Shown here: positions 12,772-59,455 of the stretch, piece after piece
Layout: every line of letters starts with the position of its first letter
How positions within the stretch are numbered: position 1 is the stretch's first letter
IMG/VR virus record: IMGVR_UViG_3300009347_000008
Reading direction: 5' to 3' (one strand)
Source of the DNA: a virus
DNA length: 64,000 nucleotides
Position numbers and translations under genes: made by a program
Notes under the pieces: generated by a model
Told to the model about the DNA's origin: nothing
Database searches by the model: none
Seen by the model: only the letters and a program-made list of their open reading frames with translations

Positions 12772-12828
12772 AACAGTTTTCCTTAAAAGTAGGATGATTA
12801 ATGAAACTATGATTATAGCTCAAAACTG

Positions 12829-12856
12829 TTATATATCGCTGAAATGTTTTTATTTG
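12829..12856 (-). promoter_or_regulatory. Conserved promoter-like box (plus-strand TTATATATCGCTGAAATGTTTTTATTTG; minus-orientation CAAATAAAAACATTTCAGCGATATATAA), copy 1
   Basis: The same motif recurs at 39158, 44298, 51985 and 59396, with a weaker copy at 63950. It always lies just downstream (in the minus direction) of a terminator hairpin and 30-110 nt upstream of the next minus-strand start codon. Confidence 0.5.
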
Positions 12857-12860
12857 CGTC

Positions 12861-12890
12861 ATAAAGGGAGACCCGAAGGTCTCCCAGTAT
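12861..12890. terminator. Terminator hairpin GGGAGACC-CGAA-GGTCTCCC
   Basis: Palindrome with a CGAA loop immediately after the stop of 12893..13558. Confidence 0.65.
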
Positions 12891-12892
12891 CT

Positions 12893-26481: not shown

Positions 26482-28166
26482 TAACTAAAGATACTGACAC
26501 GTCTATTATATGTTGTAGCTTATATAATAGGTTTAACGTGTTTACAAGAAAAGAACTTTACGTACCTTTTTCTGGAAGAAGATATATTATCACTAATACT
26601 GGTAAGATATTAGATTCTGAGAAGAAAGAAATTCCTGTTGAAATAATTGATAGGTCTATTTTTGTGGAAATTGATTGGTTACTTGGTAGGAGAAAATATC
26701 TCTTGTCTGTAATAGTAATGTTCACTTATGGATCTCTTAAAGTACCAGATCATCTACTAGACTTAGTAGAACCTCTTTACGTTGATGGTGATTTTAGAAA
26801 TTTAACACCCCAGAATCTTATCTATAGATTCAAAACCCCACTAGAAGTAGAAAACTATCCTGGTTTTTTCCTTATACCCTTTTATGTTAATTACGCTTTA
26901 AGTAAGAATGGCTCATTAATTAATATAGAAACTGGTAAGGAAAAACAATGGTCAGTAACATCAACTGAAAACAATAAAAAGAATCAAAAAGGTGGCTATT
27001 ACTTTAGCCGTGTACTTAATGATTTCGGTTTCAGTAAGTGTTTATTTCTACACAGAGCATTATGTTTAGTTTTCAAAGAGTACGATAACAAAGTCCAGTC
27101 ACTTGTGGTCAATCATAAGGATGGTAATCCATCTAATAACCACTTAGATAATATCGAATGGTCTACTTATAAAGAAAATAATAATCACGCTATTGCCATG
27201 GGTCTTAGATCAGATAATAAACCTATCTTATCGAAGAACATTAAAACTGGTGAGATCATGAAATTCTCCAGTATTAATGAATGTGGAAGGTATTACAATG
27301 CTCCTAGAGCAGGTTTTATCCAACATAGGTTGAAGAAATCTGGCAATAAAATATATTCGGATTATTTATTATTTAAGTATGACGACGGGACAGAGTGGCC
27401 ATCGATAGACCTTAATAAAGTCGAAATTATCCGAGGCGGCAGAAGTGACTTAATCAAAGCTAGAAATGTCTTTACTGGTGATGTTATTTTATTCTTAGGT
27501 GCTGAAAAAGGCTCTCACTTAACAGGTGTTAAAAAAGCTACTATTTTAAATCACGTAAAAAAAGGACACTTGATACCTTGTAAAGGTTGGAATTTTAAAT
27601 GGGACAACGACGAGACTCCGTGGCCTAACCACACACATCGTCATTTGAAAGTCTATGAAAAATTCCCAATCTTTCCTCCCACTGGTGCAATTATTTTTGA
27701 TACGGAATTAAACGAGGAGCTTTTCTTTGAGAGTGTAGCTTTAGCGTGTAATTTCTTAAATATCACTAAACATGTTTTTAGTGATTACGCTAAATCAAAA
27801 ACTTTATTAAAGAAAAGATATTCGCTTACGTATTTTCATCTTGTGAAAAGTCTAGGTCTCCCTACAGAGTAATCTGTAGTAAAAAACTATGTGAATTGAC
27901 TGGAACAAGCTTAGAGCCTCATACACTCCCTACTCCAGTAATGAGAGTAGTACAGTAAAAGAGATGAGGATTGTTTAACCAGCAGCCAAGCTTCCTGACC
28001 AACGACGTGAGTCGCCGTCAGGGTGAAGGTTCAGAGACTACATACCACAAGTGTGGTTAGCGCATAGCCCCATTATTCAATGGGTGAAGATATAGTCCGA
28101 TCTATAAGGAAACCTTATAGCGGGTGCCATAGCGTACCGGCTTAGTCTAACGAACTAAGTGGACAG
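26482..28166 (+). mobile_element. Group I intron (~1.7 kb) in the DNA polymerase gene, carrying an HNH endonuclease ORF; boundaries approximate
   Basis: Canonical P7 elements: R = GGTTCAGAGACTACA (28026-28040) and S = GAAGATATAGTCC (28088-28100), with the P7 pairing GACTA/TAGTC. A P9 hairpin TATAAGG-aaa-CCTTATA follows. The intron ends with G28166, directly before an in-frame exon whose first residues are KLDVSASYPN (polymerase motif A). Confidence 0.6.
26538..27872 (+). CDS. Intron-encoded HNH homing endonuclease (444 aa; GTG start)
   Basis: HNH core VVNHKDGNPSNNHLDNIEWSTYKENNNHA; located inside the group I intron. Confidence 0.7.
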   Translation: MFTRKELYVPFSGRRYIITNTGKILDSEKKEIPVEIIDRSIFVEIDWLLGRRKYLLSVIVMFTYGSLKVPDHLLDLVEPLYVDGDFRNLTPQNLIYRFKTPLEVENYPGFFLIPFYVNYALSKNGSLINIETGKEKQWSVTSTENNKKNQKGGYYFSRVLNDFGFSKCLFLHRALCLVFKEYDNKVQSLVVNHKDGNPSNNHLDNIEWSTYKENNNHAIAMGLRSDNKPILSKNIKTGEIMKFSSINECGRYYNAPRAGFIQHRLKKSGNKIYSDYLLFKYDDGTEWPSIDLNKVEIIRGGRSDLIKARNVFTGDVILFLGAEKGSHLTGVKKATILNHVKKGHLIPCKGWNFKWDNDETPWPNHTHRHLKVYEKFPIFPPTGAIIFDTELNEELFFESVALACNFLNITKHVFSDYAKSKTLLKKRYSLTYFHLVKSLGLPTE

Positions 28167-39074: not shown

Positions 39075-39157
39075 GATGTTTTTACCTTTAAAAATGTCTA
39101 TTAGTTATCAGTTAATAGACTGGTTAGTTTTACTAAGTGAATCTTAGCTCATTTTTG

Positions 39158-39185
39158 TTATATATCGCTGAAAGTTTTTTATTTG
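39158..39185 (-). promoter_or_regulatory. Promoter-like box copy 2 (TTATATATCGCTGAAAGTTTTTTATTTG)
   Basis: Near-identical to the copy at 12829-12856; lies between the terminator at 39195-39218 and the start codon at 39074. Confidence 0.5.
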
Positions 39186-39194
39186 ATCAAAAAA

Positions 39195-39218
39195 GAAAAG
39201 CACCCGAAGGTGCTTTTC
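39195..39218. terminator. Hairpin GAAAAGCACC-CGAA-GGTGCTTTTC
   Basis: Perfect palindrome with a CGAA loop after the stop of 39226..40410. Confidence 0.65.
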
Positions 39219-39225
39219 TTAGCTG

Positions 39226-44240: not shown

Positions 44241-44297
44241 TAATTACCTTAAAAAGTTAGGTTATAGAATAGGCACAGATACTAGTACCATCGACAT

Positions 44298-44320
44298 GAT
44301 ATATTGTTGAAATGTTTTCG
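44298..44320 (-). promoter_or_regulatory. Promoter-like box copy 3 (GATATATTGTTGAAATGTTTTCG)
   Basis: Same hairpin-then-box arrangement as the other copies. Confidence 0.45.
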
Positions 44321-44330
44321 TATACAACAT

Positions 44331-44359
44331 AAAGAGAGTCCTATAATAGGACTCTCTAG
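44331..44359. terminator. Hairpin AGAGAGTCCT-ataat-AGGACTCTCT
   Basis: 10-bp perfect stem after the stop of the Thg1-like gene. Confidence 0.6.
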
Positions 44360-44370
44360 TATGATATTGA

Positions 44371-46125: not shown

Positions 46126-46305
46126 TCCTCACCGAAGTGAATGCAGTCTAGGAACCACCCTAAACCATGCTCTTTAGAGTCCAGTTTAGGTTCCCCCGTT
46201 GCCTGAAGCTGGTGGGTTAATCCGGTCAGTATGTAATTAGTAAATAATAGTATTACCTCTATAACTTAATGTTAAAGAGATGAATACTAGATAGTGTATA
46301 AGCGT

Positions 46306-46352
46306 CGCGTTAGGGGAGTTAACCCCTAACGATCCCGGCCTTCACGGGATTG
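46306..46352. terminator. Two tandem hairpins (CGTTAGGGG-agttaa-CCCCTAACG and ATCCCG-gccttca-CGGGAT) downstream of the GC-rich gene at 46367..46876
   Basis: Perfect inverted repeats on the 3' side of the minus-strand gene. Confidence 0.55.
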
Positions 46353-46366
46353 GACCTAGCGCACTT

Positions 46367-46876
46367 TTACTTGCGAGGAGCAGCCTTGGTAGCAGCGCGA
46401 GGAGTTGCCTTCTTCGCAGCAGCCACGGCTTGACCTTGTTCCTTGAATGCAGTCAGCACCTTCTCAGCATTGGCTTGCAGCCATTCGAGAGGAACACCAT
46501 GTTGCAGTTCACGAGAAACAGGAGCACCCAGCAGAACCATCAACGGGATGTAATCGCGGGTTTCAGCACCGTAAGCACGAGCCAGTGCAATGTTCTTTGC
46601 GCTCTCGCGAGCAGCAGCGATCACACGGTTCGCATTACGAATGGCTTCGAACTGAGCACGCAGTTCAGCATCGGCAACACTATTGATTGCCATGATTTCC
46701 TTGACAGCAGCGCGAGTTGCTTCCTTACGGTTAGCAGCCAGTTCTTCTTCCATGATAGCTTGGATCTCAGCATCATGAATCACGGGCAGACCGAATGCAG
46801 CCAGAGCTTCCTTTTCAGCAGTGGAAGCAGCCAGATCAGTCAGGGCATGGATGTTAACAGCGATGAGCTTGTTCAC
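46367..46876 (-). CDS. Ala-rich protein with a basic C-terminal tail (169 aa), strongly GC-rich; candidate abundant DNA-binding/virion protein
   Basis: Composition (A/E/K-rich, C-terminal AAAKKATPRAATKAAPRK) and GC content far above background. Confidence 0.6.
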   Translation of the reverse strand: MNKLIAVNIHALTDLAASTAEKEALAAFGLPVIHDAEIQAIMEEELAANRKEATRAAVKEIMAINSVADAELRAQFEAIRNANRVIAAARESAKNIALARAYGAETRDYIPLMVLLGAPVSRELQHGVPLEWLQANAEKVLTAFKEQGQAVAAAKKATPRAATKAAPRK

Positions 46877-50846: not shown

Positions 50847-50920
50847 GGGATAGCCACTATGGATCGAACCCAGAACCACAGGGGTCACATCCCTGCGCTC
50901 TACCATTGAACTAAGATGGA
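50847..50920 (-). tRNA. tRNA-His(GUG): tRNA-His(GUG)-like gene with a non-canonical acceptor region; possible pseudo-tRNA or a gene needing 5' repair
   Basis: D arm TA-GTTC-AATGGTA-GAGC and anticodon arm CAGGG-ATGTGAC-CCCTG are perfect. The T arm CTGGG-TTCGATC-CATAG has one G-A mismatch. The 3' strand reads TGGCTATCCC with no CCA. The 5' strand TCCATCT cannot pair with it. Confidence 0.45.
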
Positions 50921-51956: not shown

Positions 51957-51984
51957 AGCAACTCCATTAATTGTTCAGATTAAT

Positions 51985-52006
51985 GATATATTGCTGAAAT
52001 GATTTT
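51985..52006 (-). promoter_or_regulatory. Promoter-like box copy 4 (GATATATTGCTGAAATGATTTT)
   Basis: Conserved box immediately 3' of tRNA-Arg and ~30-50 nt upstream of the HNH gene start. Confidence 0.45.
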
Positions 52007-52015
52007 AGAAATAAA

Positions 52016-52090
52016 TGGTGGGCGATCCAAGAATCGAACTTGGAACTAAAACTTAGAAGGTTCTTGTTATTTCCATTTAACTAATCGCCC
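52016..52090 (-). tRNA. tRNA-Arg(UCU): tRNA-Arg(UCU), CCA encoded
   Basis: Acceptor GGGCGAT/ATCGCCC; D stem GTTA/TAAC; anticodon arm AGAAC-CTTCTAA-GTTTT; T arm CCAAG-TTCGATT-CTTGG. Confidence 0.8.
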
Positions 52091-52176
52091 TTGTCCTTTA
52101 CTCTAATCCAACTGAGTTACAGACGCTTTATCTTTAAGCTGTTGCTACTATTCGCTGAGCTATGGGCAGTTATGTT

Positions 52177-54434: not shown

Positions 54435-54536
54435 GAGTTTCCTTTAAAGAAGGTTGTTAATTGGTTTGGTTGTCAAAGTATTACATGGTAATACATAAAC
54501 ATGATATATGGTTGTAATTATTTTAAATAAACATCA

Positions 54537-54567
54537 TAAGAAGGAGTACCCGAAGGTACTCCCTTTA
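54537..54567. terminator. Hairpin GGAGTACC-CGAA-GGTACTCC within CATAAG...CTTTATG
   Basis: Perfect palindrome with a CGAA loop. Confidence 0.65.
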
Positions 54568-54739
54568 TGACCCCTTGGTGATAGCGTCAGGCTTACGATC
54601 TAAACAACATTTGAAAGGATAGAAAGAAAAATGTAAGATCAAACACGAAAGCGCTATCGCAACGAGAAACTGATTAAATATAAATACCTAGTCATCCAGT
54701 GTATTCTTTCCGTAACACACTTTCTAACCACATACTATA

Positions 54740-57568: not shown

Positions 57569-58129
57569 CTATGGCTCCAATCGTAAGCTCGCTACTATAG
57601 TCCTAAAGCTCAATGACTTGAACTCAATCTCCCTCAGATAGCGATCACATTTATGGTTGAATGCTCCTTGACTCTCTATCAAGTAAACATAACTTCCACT
57701 TCTCAATTCTACTTCCTTGAAGTATTCACTCAGCTCATGAGAGGCCACATGGTACTGAGGTCTGAAGTGAATATATTGAGTACAGTACTGATCATGTTCC
57801 CAATCAGGAACACTAAACAATTGAGCAGTTGTCTGTGCCAACCAAGGAAGCATCACATTATCAAGATGTTCTATGGTAAGTAAACTAGCTCTAGCTACAT
57901 TCGTGAGGTGTTCTTCTACGTTCTTTTGTTCTTGCTTTACTCTGCTTTGTAGACGTTTATCGTAAGTGATTGGATGAAACACATCACTAAACCTAAAGAG
58001 TGGTTTTGGATCTTTTTTCAAAGCTAGTATATGGTCCAGTGCTCCCTTGAACTCTGACCTAGCCATATGCAGCTCCATTACTAACTTGTCATACCTATCG
58101 CTGTTTTCATATATCTTAGTAAAGTCCAT
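57569..58129 (-). CDS. Hypothetical protein (186 aa)
   Basis: ORF. Confidence 0.5.
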   Translation of the reverse strand: MDFTKIYENSDRYDKLVMELHMARSEFKGALDHILALKKDPKPLFRFSDVFHPITYDKRLQSRVKQEQKNVEEHLTNVARASLLTIEHLDNVMLPWLAQTTAQLFSVPDWEHDQYCTQYIHFRPQYHVASHELSEYFKEVELRSGSYVYLIESQGAFNHKCDRYLREIEFKSLSFRTIVASLRLEP

Positions 58130-58605
58130 TTCATTATCCTTTCATAAAGTCATAGATACTGACTCTTTATGTACTATTAAAAAAATACTGTTACTATTGA
58201 TACTGTGGGTACGTACATACATACATAATGGGGGGCTACGCCCCCCTAGTATATATTATTAAGTTAGTATGTCTACTGCGTAGAAGACTCCGTAGGATGG
58301 TCTTCGCTCGCTGGTATAGTCTCATCCTTCGTCTACCTTCGGTATCCTCAGTCCTCGTCTATCCTCTAGCTCGCTCAGACTGAAAAAATCAATCTGAGCA
58401 TACTATTGAAGTATCAATAAAATTTAGATAAAAACAAATAGATTAATAAAGTAAAGCTTCTAGCTTTACAATGAAATCATTTAATTTAATAGAGTATATA
58501 CGAGTAGTAAACTACTCGATTAAGAGAATGATAAAGACATGTATATATAGGGCGCAAAAATTGTGATTTGGATTTTTTAAGTTATCTAGAAAAAAAAACA
58601 AAAAA

Positions 58606-58630
58606 AAAGACTCTCCATATGGAGAGTCTT
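58606..58630. terminator. Hairpin GACTCTCCATATGGAGAGTC between an A-run and a T-run
   Basis: Perfect palindrome at the right edge of the 520-nt non-coding region. Confidence 0.6.
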
Positions 58631-58649
58631 TTATGACGCTTACTATGGC

Positions 58650-59330
58650 TTAACTACAGTGCGCTTTGACGATGCGTTCCATGAGAACTTTTCCATCTAG
58701 TCCAAACTCACTGAACTTCATCTCGGCCATTTTGCGTGCATCGTTGCCACGGCGCCATACTCTGATGCCGTCACTGTAGTCATAGCTATGATCAAGGGAG
58801 AAGGCAAGGTCAACCAGATCTTTAAAGCCGTCATCCTTAGACATAGTCAGGATTTCAGCCTTGAGGTCAGCAATTTTCTTTAAGTATGCTTGACTCCTAG
58901 CTTCTTCTTCATTGCGACGCTTGACTCTCTCGGCATGTGCAGCCATGAGCTTCTCAGTAGTCTGATCATTCATGTTGTTCATGAAGTTACCACTGAAATA
59001 ACCAAGCGACTTACTCAATTCTACCTTCAAGACAGTGTAATCATCGTAGGTGAAAGTATCTGTTTTGTTATCGACTTCACCAACCAGGATCAGACCATAG
59101 ATTGAGGTAATGTAATCCCGTCCCCCCTTAGTAGTGCCAAGATTATATCTTTCGTTGGCCGCTTCGGTTTGCTTCTTAAACTCTTCAATGACTTCTGGAT
59201 CGATGATCCAGAGGGTCTGATTACTGTAGAAGGCGTTGAATGCTCCAAAGGAGTAGTGGCTGCTTACCAATGTCAGATTATTGGCGTACCATTGTTGCAG
59301 ATTTGTCAGCATGATGTTTTTTCCTTTCAA
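58650..59330 (-). CDS. Hypothetical protein (226 aa)
   Basis: ORF downstream of promoter-like box copy 5. Confidence 0.55.
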   Translation of the reverse strand: MKGKNIMLTNLQQWYANNLTLVSSHYSFGAFNAFYSNQTLWIIDPEVIEEFKKQTEAANERYNLGTTKGGRDYITSIYGLILVGEVDNKTDTFTYDDYTVLKVELSKSLGYFSGNFMNNMNDQTTEKLMAAHAERVKRRNEEEARSQAYLKKIADLKAEILTMSKDDGFKDLVDLAFSLDHSYDYSDGIRVWRRGNDARKMAEMKFSEFGLDGKVLMERIVKAHCS

Positions 59331-59395
59331 ATTGTCTAACGATCATCACTCGTTAGACTGGTTTATAAAGAACTTATAACTAAGCTCATTTTTAC

Positions 59396-59420
59396 TATAT
59401 ATTGCTGAAAATTTTTTATT
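59396..59420 (-). promoter_or_regulatory. Promoter-like box copy 5 (TATATATTGCTGAAAATTTTTTATT)
   Basis: Same hairpin-then-box arrangement; ~60-90 nt upstream of start codon 59330. Confidence 0.5.
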
Positions 59421-59428
59421 ACTGCATA

Positions 59429-59452
59429 AGAGAGTACCCGAAGGTACTCTCT
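59429..59452. terminator. Hairpin AGAGAGTACC-CGAA-GGTACTCTCT (an exact copy of 12503-12526)
   Basis: Identical 24-mer at the two loci. Confidence 0.7.
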
Positions 59453-59455
59453 TAA

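What the first reader, a model, noticed from the sequence alone, without database searches (positions are those of the whole stretch)
58130..58649. A 520-nt non-coding region with strong hairpins, short direct repeats and a tandem ACAT tract: candidate replication origin or non-coding RNA locus
No ORF of 60 aa or more lies on the coding (minus) strand here. The region contains a perfect GC hairpin (GGGGGGC-tac-GCCCCCC, ~58224-58240) and an ACAT/ACGT tandem tract (GTACGTACATACATACATAA). It also contains imperfect direct repeats of the form CCTTCGTCTACCTTCGG / CCTCGTCTATCCTCTAG (~58300-58360). Further palindromes are AAAGCT-tcta-AGCTTT and GAGTAGT-aaa-CTACTC. Very AT-rich flanks end in a terminator. 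Iteron-like repeats next to an AT-rich unwinding element would fit a replication origin. Alternatively the structured GC-rich core could be a stable small RNA.
Basis: seen in the sequence. Interest (0 to 1): 0.55.

Follow-up and report, generated by a model that had tools for sequence, protein, structure and literature searches.

The report
Jumbo-phage intergenic small RNA candidate
The 520-base gap is a transcription boundary of an uncultured phiKZ-like giant phage, with three terminator hairpins and a probable ~175-nt structured non-coding RNA next to an empty homing-endonuclease slot; it is an ordinary kind of element for such phages and not a demonstrable replication origin.

Summary
The GC hairpin is at 58230-58246, not 58224-58240.

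The window comes from an uncultured phiKZ-like jumbo phage. On the coding (minus) strand the gap reads as follows:
- The terminator of the upstream gene.
- An AT-rich promoter-like box, followed by two stem-conserved hairpins.
- A variable AT spacer and an invariant TATG.
- About 170 nt of folded RNA.
- The GC hairpin followed by TTAT, which is the phiKZ-type terminator.

The "iteron-like repeats" are the two arms of one purine-rich hairpin containing four tandem G·A pairs. Across 9 haplotypes, the changes in stems are compensatory or G-U compatible on the minus strand only. A frameshift rules out the small ORFs.

The homology break next to the ACAT tract is the empty site of an HNH homing-endonuclease gene. 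That gene is intact, truncated or replaced in relatives.

phiKZ has a northern-validated 141-nt RNA with the same TATG-to-terminator layout, but the two share no sequence homology. There is no Rfam match.

The origin reading has no support: only two repeat copies and no skew inflection. I have no expression data and the RNA's function is unknown.

Verdict: a new member of a known kind, of modest interest.

The parts
58586..58632 (-). T1: intrinsic terminator of the upstream 226-aa gene (AAAAGACTCTCCAT/ATGGAGAGTCTTTT followed by T9GT9). On the plus strand the same hairpin is followed by TTTTATGACG, so it is bidirectional.
   Evidence: The stem is retained with 1 mismatch in relatives.
58541..58555 (-). 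Left edge of the conserved module: GCGCCCTATATATAC, an AT-rich promoter-like box. It resembles the window's recurrent intergenic motif TTTCAGC(G/A)ATATAT(A/C)A.
   Evidence: Homology to L008 and L026 starts here although their upstream sequence is unrelated. The motif was compared by eye. Promoter function is inferred.
58501..58518 (-). HP1: 8-bp-arm palindrome CGAGTAGT-TT-ACTACTCG. It is followed by a second TATATAC at 58494-58500.
   Evidence: The stem is invariant in all relatives, while the central TT becomes AA in L026.
58445..58469 (-). T2: hairpin GTAAAGCT-AGA-AGCTTTAC followed by TTTATT. It is terminator-like on the minus strand.
   Evidence: The stem is constant, while the loop differs among haplotypes: AGA, TCT, CTTAA, CTTTA.
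58403..58444 (-). AT-rich spacer, the most variable stretch of the gap.
   Evidence: Measured on 58403-58449, it is 79% identical between the window and relatives and 18% GC.
58399..58402 (-). TATG, inside ATAGTATG. Proposed phiKZ-type start, with +1 at the G (58399).
   Evidence: TATG is invariant while the flanking bases vary. ATAGTATG also occurs at two other intergenic sites on the coding strand, 3960 and 54737. The phiKZ late promoter rule is from PMC4666361. Use as a start site is inferred.
58225..58399 (-). Candidate ~175-nt non-coding RNA (P1-P2-P3-P4-T3).
   Evidence: One copy per genome, scoring 155-171 bits with model R1.
58373..58399 (-). P1: 11-bp 5'-terminal hairpin.
   Evidence: U-A<->A-U at pair 9, and C-G<->U-G at pairs 2 and 8.
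58310..58370 (-). P2: purine-rich rod hairpin. Watson-Crick pairs alternate with four symmetric tandem G.A/A.G loops, and the apical loop is GAA.
   Evidence: z = -4.0 for 58300-58372. Changes seen: C-G<->G-C at the base, G-U<->A-U, U-A->U-G, and a change in the loop. Two haplotypes each break one pair, L021 and L026.
58283..58305 (-). P3: GAAGAC/GTCTTC hairpin with a C-rich loop. The inner 3 bp are re-registered by a 1-nt indel between haplotypes.
58266..58277 (-). P4: small 4-bp hairpin inside the invariant stretch GTAGACATACTAAC.
   Evidence: It never varies, so variation neither supports nor contradicts it.
58225..58246 (-). T3: GGGGGGC-GTA-GCCCCCC followed by ATTAT, a phiKZ-type terminator (GC hairpin + TTAT).
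   Evidence: The motif definition is from PMC10914365. Relatives carry GGGGGC-GTTA-GCCCCC extended by AAUAAUA/UAUUAUU.
58209..58228 (-). The ACAT tract. On the coding strand it reads TTATGTATGTATGTACGTAC, that is three overlapping TATG. It lies next to the point (~58214) where homology to endonuclease-bearing relatives stops.
58143..58164 (-). Weak hairpin AGTCA-GTATCTA-TGACT followed by TTATG, then the Shine-Dalgarno sequence AAAGGA and the start of the 186-aa gene at 58129.
   Evidence: This stretch is shared with L015 just upstream of its 186-aa gene.

Best explanation
The gap is a compound transcription boundary of a phiKZ-like jumbo phage, and it houses a stand-alone structured RNA.

Reading the coding (minus) strand:
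1. T1 ends the upstream operon.
2. A compact AT-rich promoter-like box, a palindromic hairpin and a second terminator-like hairpin (T2) follow.
3. After a variable AT spacer, transcription starts at the G of an invariant TATG (58399).
4. It makes an RNA of about 175 nt. The RNA consists of a 5' protective hairpin (P1), a long purine-rich rod held together by Watson-Crick pairs alternating with four tandem G.A pairs (P2), a hairpin with a C-rich loop (P3), an invariant single-stranded or weakly paired stretch (GUAGACAUACUAAC), and the GC hairpin + TTAT terminator (T3).
5. TATG motifs directly after T3 restart transcription into the downstream genes.

Between T3 and the 186-aa gene lies the insertion site of a free-standing HNH homing-endonuclease gene. 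This site is empty in this genome.

Shown here: the sequence anatomy, the strand-specific structure-preserving variation, the absence of coding potential, the single-copy status, the class membership of the terminators, and the endonuclease indel.

Inferred: that the RNA is made, where its ends lie, and that it acts as a free RNA. My best guess for its role is a protein-binding or base-pairing regulator, as proposed for the short terminated RNAs of phiKZ and 201phi2-1.
For: Phage identity:
- phiKZ_IP domain on the 548-aa ORF.
- The 1054-aa protein matches 290 jumbo phages at 41% identity or less.

Transcription signals:
- Three terminator-like hairpins lie on the minus strand.
- GC hairpin + T-rich + TATG occurs 26 times in the window, against 0-4 in shuffles.
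- This matches phiKZ's conserved hairpin+TTAT terminator (PMC10914365) and its TATG late promoter with +1 at the G (PMC4666361).

Structure:
- Fold z-score is -4.1 on the minus strand and -1.4 on the plus strand.
- The RNAalifold structure has 57 pairs.
- On 9 haplotypes, 98.7% of cells are paired. Two pairs show double changes. All five one-sided changes are G-U compatible on the minus strand only. Slid controls give 30-40% paired.
- Loops vary while stems stay constant in HP1 and T2.

Coding potential:
- The 29/23-aa ORF is frame-shifted between haplotypes while its nucleotides stay conserved. The plus-strand 51-aa ORF loses its start.

Independence from neighbouring genes:
- The module is kept whatever gene follows it: nothing, an intact or truncated HNH gene, or a DUF6624 gene.
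- It is also kept in L026, which lacks the upstream 226-aa gene.

Precedent:
- In phiKZ, the distance from the TATG G after PHIKZ303 to the hairpin+TTTATA is 141 nt. This equals the northern-validated 141-nt intergenic RNA.
Against: - There are no expression data of any kind.
- The relatives are nearly the same phage: neighbouring genes are 94-99% identical. Conservation alone therefore says little.
- The variation amounts to roughly ten events carried on two main haplotypes that recombine.
- The structure was derived from the same sequences on which it was scored.
- Two haplotypes each break one pair in P2 (L021 G.G, L026 G.G).
- TATG is a 4-mer with 471 copies in the window.
- Whether this phage's polymerases follow the phiKZ rules is assumed, not shown.
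- No target stands out within the window.
- No homologue was found outside this clade.
Confidence: 0.5

Rival explanations
1. Cis-acting leader. The folded RNA and T3 form a conditional terminator (attenuator) that doses read-through into the downstream genes, rather than a free-acting RNA.
For: - phiKZ short RNAs arise by premature or conditional termination in 5' UTRs, with two read-through modes (PMC10914365; PMC11512511).
- T3 lacks a U-run, so it may be leaky.
- In both haplotypes the C-rich P3 loop (CCCCU or UCCUA) is complementary to UAGGGG at the 5' foot of T3. I read this from the alignment. It would allow an anti-terminator contact. This is my inference and is weak.
Against: - The gene after T3 differs between genomes or is absent.
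- The 186-aa gene has its own hairpin+TTATG motif just upstream.
- TATG motifs directly follow T3.
- No long alternative pairing is evident.
Confidence: 0.2
2. No RNA function beyond punctuation. The hairpins are only terminators and promoters, and the rest is spacer or the recognition and recombination zone of the neighbouring homing endonuclease. On this view the apparent covariation is a by-product of two co-converted haplotypes.
For: - The locus is a diversity hot spot beside an HNH endonuclease slot.
- The variants fall into two linked haplotypes with recombinants.
- Many metagenome contigs break in this region.
Against: - All five one-sided stem changes and both double changes preserve pairing, and only on the gene-sense strand.
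- The 60-nt purine rod folds far better than shuffles.
- The core is identical between L008 and L009 although their adjacent 226-aa genes are only 78% identical.
Confidence: 0.17
3. Replication origin: an AT-rich unwinding element plus iterons and hairpins bound by an initiator.
For: - A stretch of 18-25% GC at 58400-58549.
- Palindromes, and one pair of direct repeats.
- To my knowledge, the origins of phiKZ-like phages are unmapped, so nothing excludes this reading outright.
Against: - Only two repeat copies, 75% identical.
- The repeats pair with each other, and their substitutions are G-U compatible on one strand only.
- No skew inflection occurs at 58 kb within the window.
- No recognisable initiator, helicase or primase gene lies next to the gap.
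- The AT-rich part is the least conserved.
- Every hairpin fits a transcription-signal class.
Confidence: 0.05
4. A small protein gene: the 29-aa minus-strand ORF starting at the ATG of GGATGAGAC, the plus-strand 51-aa ORF (58228-58383), or the plus-strand 31-aa ORF (58471-58566).
For: These ORFs exist in the window. AAGG motifs precede the 29-aa ORF.
Against: - A 1-nt indel changes the reading frame of the C-terminal half between haplotypes while the nucleotides stay invariant.
- The start codons of the plus-strand ORFs are lost in relatives.
- No Shine-Dalgarno sequence sits at proper spacing for the plus-strand ORFs.
Confidence: 0.03

Closest known systems
phiKZ 141-nt intergenic small RNA upstream of PHIKZ302 (TU237/T131), together with the 5'UTR-derived short RNAs of phiKZ and 201phi2-1 (PMC10914365, PMC11512511)
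   Same: - It lies between a structural-gene block and small downstream genes on the same strand.
- TATG sits at the inferred 5' end.
- A conserved-class hairpin+TTAT terminator sits at the 3' end.
- The size is 140-175 nt.
- TATG-rich sequence follows the terminator.
The phiKZ sequence was read. The 141-nt length matches the paper.
   Different: - No sequence or structure homology. Model R1 finds nothing in phiKZ 255-280 kb.
- The phiKZ RNA has no purine rod.
- The phiKZ RNA is experimentally detected, whereas this one is only predicted.
phiKZ conserved intrinsic-terminator motif (GC hairpin followed by 5'-TTAT-3'; PMC10914365)
   Same: T2 and T3, and 26 sites across the window, are GC hairpins followed within a few bases by TTAT(G/T).
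   Different: - The stem sequences differ. This phage favours GGGAG..CTCCC arms with a TTCG loop, and T3 is G6C/GC6.
- Termination was not measured here.
Free-standing homing-endonuclease genes in phage intergenic regions (the T4 seg/mob genes; recalled from my own knowledge)
   Same: The slot between T3 and the 186-aa gene holds an HNH endonuclease that is intact (287 aa), truncated (142, 109 or 101 aa), replaced by another gene, or absent. The flanking sequences are mosaic.
   Different: This concerns the neighbouring slot, not the RNA itself. The cleavage site and homing activity are untested.
Iteron-type replication origins of plasmids and phages
   Same: An AT-rich stretch, palindromes, and one pair of direct repeats.
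   Different: There are two imperfect copies rather than an array. No initiator gene is adjacent, there is no skew signal, and the repeats are the arms of a hairpin.
CsrB/RsmY/RsmZ-type protein-sponge RNAs (a resemblance only)
   Same: Several GGA motifs in a short terminated RNA: four to five within the purine-rich part.
   Different: The GGA motifs lie in helix arms as G.A pairs, not in hairpin loops. No Rfam match was found even at E <= 10. The host and its CsrA status are unknown.

Membership tests
phiKZ-type intrinsic terminator | GC-rich stem-loop | tested here: met
   T3 has 7 G-C pairs, T1 has 12 pairs, and T2 has 8 pairs of which 3 are G-C.
phiKZ-type intrinsic terminator | 5'-TTAT-3' directly after the stem | tested here: met
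   T3 is followed by ATTATG and T2 by TTTATT. T1 has a T-run on the minus strand and TTTTATG on the plus strand. The motif definition is from PMC10914365.
phiKZ-type intrinsic terminator | Mapped transcript 3' ends at the site | not testable with these tools
   No transcriptome is available for this uncultured phage.
phiKZ-type late promoter | TATG with transcription starting at the G | tested here: inconclusive
   TATG at 58399-58402 is invariant in all haplotypes while its neighbours vary. However, a 4-mer is not specific (471 copies), and the start site cannot be mapped here.
Stand-alone bacterial/phage small RNA | Own terminator and no coding potential | tested here: met
Stand-alone bacterial/phage small RNA | Secondary structure supported by covariation | tested here: met
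   Two compensatory pairs and five wobble-compatible one-sided changes, with 98.7% of cells paired. The support is limited: 9 haplotypes and few independent events.
Stand-alone bacterial/phage small RNA | Detected transcript of defined length | not testable with these tools
   No RNA data are available.
Any Rfam 15 family | Covariance-model score at or above the gathering threshold | tested here: not met
   No hit in 58130-58649 at gathering thresholds. At E <= 10 there are only sub-threshold chance-level hits, and none on the minus-strand core.
Iteron-type replication origin | Array of three or more direct repeats | tested here: not met
   One pair, 20 nt, 75% identical. TRF finds only the poly-A run.
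Iteron-type replication origin | AT-rich unwinding element | tested here: met
   18-25% GC at 58400-58549.
Iteron-type replication origin | Strand-composition switch at the site | tested here: not met
   Cumulative GC skew declines steadily across 57-64 kb. Only 64 kb of a genome of about 259 kb is available, so the test is partial.
Iteron-type replication origin | Adjacent initiator gene, or mapped initiation | tested here: inconclusive
   The neighbouring proteins have no Pfam or PHROG function. The 186-aa protein is a helical bundle with no informative fold match.
CsrA/RsmA sponge RNA | Repeated GGA motifs exposed in hairpin loops | tested here: not met
   In the consensus fold the GGA motifs lie in the arms of P2.
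Type III toxin-antitoxin RNA (ToxI-like) | Tandem near-identical repeats immediately upstream of the toxin gene | tested here: not met
   Two imperfect units only. The downstream gene is variable or absent. No PADLOC hit on the neighbours.

The most novel reading that the evidence does not exclude
The ~175-nt RNA founds a new class of structured jumbo-phage RNA. Its rod of four consecutive tandem G.A pairs is a docking platform for a phage or host protein, acting as a decoy, sponge or scaffold. It is maintained next to a homing-endonuclease hot spot because the phage needs it.
Probability: 0.12. Interest if true: 0.55.

Novelty: new member of a known kind. Interest (0 to 1): 0.33.

Why it matters
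If the RNA is real, it adds a conserved non-coding RNA with an unusual fold (a tandem G.A rod) to the few short RNAs known from nucleus-forming giant phages, none of which has a known function. It also shows two things:
- The phiKZ rules (TATG start, hairpin+TTAT stop) can be read directly in an uncultured relative to predict such RNAs.
- "Iteron-like" repeats in purine-rich DNA can simply be the two arms of a G.A-rich hairpin.

This is a useful annotation, not a surprise to specialists.

Tried and rejected
- **Rfam:** no family at gathering or E <= 10 thresholds.
- **INPHARED phages:** no match by megablast or blastn to the region, nor by tblastn to the two flanking proteins.
- **IMG/VR:** two protein scans and two DNA-pattern scans found nothing. 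Four loci carrying a 37%-identical glycosyltransferase homologue lack the RNA.
- **Paralogues in the window:** none by blastn-short or with covariance model R1.
- **Homology to phiKZ:** R1 finds nothing in the last 25 kb, which holds the 141-nt RNA.
- **Small ORFs:** rejected by a frameshift and by start-codon loss.
- **TATATAC as a general promoter word:** not enriched, 8 copies against 8.6 expected.
- **Sigma-70 promoter scan:** not above chance.
- **Target prediction:** RNAduplex against all gene starts in the window was no better than shuffled RNA (one search timed out).
- **Function of neighbours:** no Pfam, PHROG or PADLOC hit for the 186-aa and 226-aa proteins. A PDB profile search gave nothing. 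The AlphaFold model of the 186-aa protein (pLDDT 82.6) is a helical bundle with no Foldseek match below E = 0.15.
- **phiKZ supplementary tables:** the tables with start-site coordinates are not held.
- **Considered and dropped:** CsrA sponge, type III antitoxin and retron RNA were excluded by tested features (see the membership tests). The IS110 bridge RNA idea was dropped because no partner gene is present.

Full report
**What the window is.** Rfam and ARAGORN find three tRNAs, a group I intron and a twister-sister ribozyme. One ORF carries the phiKZ internal-head-protein domain. A 1054-aa protein matches 290 jumbo phages at 41% identity or less: Pseudomonas, Erwinia, Burkholderia, Xanthomonas and others. 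No cultured phage is close at the DNA level. The window is therefore part of an uncultured phiKZ-like jumbo phage. Around the finding all genes lie on the minus strand.

**The observation.**
- The gap 58130-58649 lies between the stop of a 226-aa gene (58650-59330) and the start of a 186-aa gene (57569-58129). It has no minus-strand ORF of 30 aa or more.
- All listed features are present. The GC hairpin is at 58230-58246, the ACAT tract at 58209-58228, and the direct repeats at 58321-58340 and 58347-58366. The repeats are a single pair, 75% identical, spaced 26 nt apart.
- The two small palindromes are at 58451-58469 and 58501-58518. The terminator is at 58605-58632.
- Terminator-like sites number 6, against 0.3 expected. 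The 138-nt core folds with z = -4.1 on the minus strand and z = -1.4 on the plus strand.

**Relatives.**
- The flanking proteins have metagenomic homologues: 15 for the 186-aa protein and 107 for the 226-aa protein. I fetched 25 related loci, mostly from sewage or wastewater assemblies.
- One of them, L026, is part of a 259-kb contig binned as an Aurantimicrobium MAG. It is probably the whole phage genome.
- An important caveat: these relatives are nearly the same phage. The 270-aa, 124-aa and glycosyltransferase genes are 94-99% identical in DNA. The 226-aa gene (74-89%), the gap (about 87-95%) and the 186-aa gene (about 80-85%) form a local diversity hot spot. Conservation by itself is therefore weak evidence, and what counts is the pattern of change.

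**Anatomy on the minus strand**.
1. T1 is a strong terminator.
2. The conserved module begins abruptly at GCGCCCTATATATAC (58555). Upstream of this point L008 and L026 are unrelated, and L026 lacks the 226-aa gene altogether. This box resembles a motif that recurs in the window's intergenic regions, TTTCAGC(G/A)ATATAT(A/C)A. phiKZ early promoters are AT-rich with an extended -10 (PMC8244752). Promoter function here is inferred.
3. HP1 and T2 are hairpins with constant stems and varying loops.
4. A variable AT-rich spacer follows.
5. TATG is invariant within ATAGTATG.
6. Next come about 170 nt that fold into P1, P2, P3 and P4.
7. T3 is the GC hairpin followed by ATTATG.
8. The tract TTATGTATGTATGTACGTAC follows, which is the ACAT tract read on the coding strand. 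Then comes a weak hairpin+TTATG and the 186-aa gene.

**The punctuation class.**
- A perfect GC hairpin followed within 5 nt by TATG occurs 26 times in the window, against 0-4 in shuffles. Many of these sites work on both strands.
- In phiKZ, 61 intrinsic terminators share a hairpin followed by 5'-TTAT-3' (PMC10914365). Late promoters are TATG with +1 at the G (PMC4666361).
- T2 and T3 fit the terminator class. The striking GC hairpin is thus ordinary punctuation for this kind of phage.

**The repeats are hairpin arms.** In the consensus fold, the purine-rich stretch 58310-58370 is one long hairpin. It reads 5'-GGAUAG A C GA G GA CU GA G GA UACC [GAA] GGUA GA C GA AG GA U GA G A CUAU A CC-3'. 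Watson-Crick pairs alternate with four symmetric tandem G.A/A.G loops (z = -4.0 for 58300-58372). Because 5'-GA-3' faces 5'-GA-3', the two arms look like direct repeats.

**Variation.** Nine distinct haplotypes were aligned (alignment A4).
- 98.7% of pair cells are standard pairs.
- Two pairs change on both sides: P1 pair 9 (A-U/U-A) and the base of P2 (C-G/G-C).
- Five pairs change on one side only. All five are C-G/U-G or A-U/G-U changes, so they pair on the minus strand but would be A.C mismatches on the plus strand.
- The slid controls give 30-40% pairing.
- P3 keeps a 3-bp inner extension through an indel plus two substitutions. T3 keeps a perfect stem in two different versions.
- Exceptions: L021 (G.G at the base of P2) and L026 (G.G inside the rod).
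- The events are few and are carried by two recombining haplotypes, and the structure was derived from these same sequences. The support is real but modest.

**Not coding.** The 29-aa ORF starting at the ATG of GGATGAGAC is 23 aa in other haplotypes. A 1-nt indel puts its second half in another frame while the nucleotides stay invariant. The plus-strand 51-aa and 31-aa ORFs lose their starts.

**Copy number and homology.** Covariance model R1 finds exactly one copy in the window and in each relative, scoring 155-171 bits. It finds nothing else in the 64 kb, nothing in phiKZ 255-280 kb, and nothing in four IMG/VR loci with a distant glycosyltransferase homologue. There is no Rfam family.

**Precedent.** phiKZ makes a northern-validated 141-nt intergenic RNA upstream of PHIKZ302, ended by a conserved terminator. 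In the phiKZ sequence, the G of ATTATG just after the PHIKZ303 stop lies 135 nt before the end of the hairpin GCCTCCCTTCGGGGAGGC. Adding 6 nt of the TTTATA tail gives 141 nt. The same reading here gives 58399 to about 58225, roughly 175 nt. 201phi2-1 has 11 such short RNAs.

**The neighbouring slot.**
- Homology between the window and most relatives stops right after T3.
- Relatives carry there a 287-aa gene that PHROGs identifies as an HNH endonuclease (phrog_3377, E = 1.4e-61). Others carry its 142-, 109- or 101-aa truncations, or a DUF6624 gene with a remnant of the first endonuclease codons. The window, L006b and L026 carry nothing.
- This is the presence/decay/absence pattern of a free-standing homing endonuclease. 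It probably explains the local mosaicism and the many contig breaks.
- The RNA module is kept in all of these states, and also without the 226-aa gene. It is therefore tied to neither neighbour.

**Origin reading.**
- There are only two repeat copies, and they pair with each other.
- The cumulative skew shows no inflection at 58 kb.
- No initiator-like neighbour is present.
- The AT-rich stretch is the least conserved part.
- Sequence alone cannot exclude an origin, but nothing favours it.

**Function.** Function is unknown. I commit to a stand-alone small RNA made from the TATG start and ended at T3 (confidence about 0.5). A cis-acting conditional terminator is the main rival (0.2). The P3 loop is complementary to UAGGGG at the foot of T3 in both haplotypes, which would suit that rival. 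A search for base-pairing targets in the window gave nothing above shuffles.

**Verdict.** The finding is real, and the origin idea is unsupported. The small-RNA idea is plausible, and on that reading this is a new member of a known kind. Interest is modest.

Noticed in passing
L002 3125-3988; L004 1705-2568; L008 4149-4577; L010 4181-4510; L012 4179-4484; window 58130-58214 (empty site): A free-standing HNH homing-endonuclease gene (287 aa, phrog_3377 E = 1.4e-61) occupies the slot between T3 and the 186-aa gene in many relatives. It is truncated to 142, 109 or 101 aa in others, replaced by a DUF6624 gene in L007, L009 and L015, and absent in the window, L006b and L026. Pfam did not detect it.
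   Followed up: partly
window 58650-59330 (-): The 226-aa gene is far more variable among relatives (74-89% nt identity) than the genes to its left (94-99%). It is missing altogether in L026.
   Followed up: partly
whole window, e.g. 12863, 32267, 38512, 44331, 45247, 54538, 59428, 62836 (-): GC hairpin + T-rich + TATG punctuation occurs 26 times, against 0-4 in shuffles. Typical form is GGGAGxCC-TTCG-GGxCTCCC-TTTATG(N)CG, and many copies carry TATG on both strands. It matches the phiKZ hairpin+TTAT terminator motif.
   Followed up: partly
window minus-strand intergenic regions 12772-12892, 39075-39225, 44241-44370, 51957-52176, 59331-59455: A second recurrent motif, AAAAnnTTTCAGC(G/A)ATATAT(A/C)A, probably marks another promoter class of this phage.
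   Followed up: no
window 54492-54739 (-): A second non-coding gap with the same layout: ATAGTATG right after a stop codon, about 190 nt of foldable sequence (z = -3.4), then a hairpin followed by CTTATG. It may be another small RNA. No Rfam match.
   Followed up: partly
window 46289-46367 (-): Twister-sister ribozyme match (41.9 bits, gathering 34) inside a 659-nt gap of a jumbo phage.
   Followed up: no
window 27826-28120 (+): Group I intron (66.5 bits) overlapping the end of a 444-aa ORF (26538-27872) that carries an HNH_3 domain.
   Followed up: no
window 50857-50913 (-): A tRNA-like sequence scoring 28.8 bits, just under Rfam's 29-bit threshold. Only model positions 8-63 match, and ARAGORN does not call it. 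It may be a decayed tRNA (a GUG anticodon loop by eye).
   Followed up: partly
L026 (NZ_JAVWTF010000001.1, 259,245 bp): A contig labelled as an Aurantimicrobium MAG is a relative of this phage (82-92% nt identity over 8 kb). It is probably a complete jumbo-phage genome binned with a bacterium.
   Followed up: partly
window 58195-58204 and 58410-58419: A perfect 10-nt inverted repeat (TATTGATACT / AGTATCAATA) brackets the RNA core plus T3. It is present only in the endonuclease-free haplotype and may be chance.
   Followed up: no
L006 1-2180; L017 3' end: L006 is a palindromic chimera joining the endonuclease-bearing and endonuclease-free alleles, so both alleles coexist in one sample. L017 ends in Illumina adapter sequence (AGATCGGAAGAGCGTCG).
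   Followed up: no
window 58310-58370 and 58266-58277 (-): The pentamer TAGAC occurs three times in the 137-nt RNA core, as (A/G)UAGAC(G/A). About 0.13 copies would be expected by chance. It could be a protein-recognition word.
   Followed up: no
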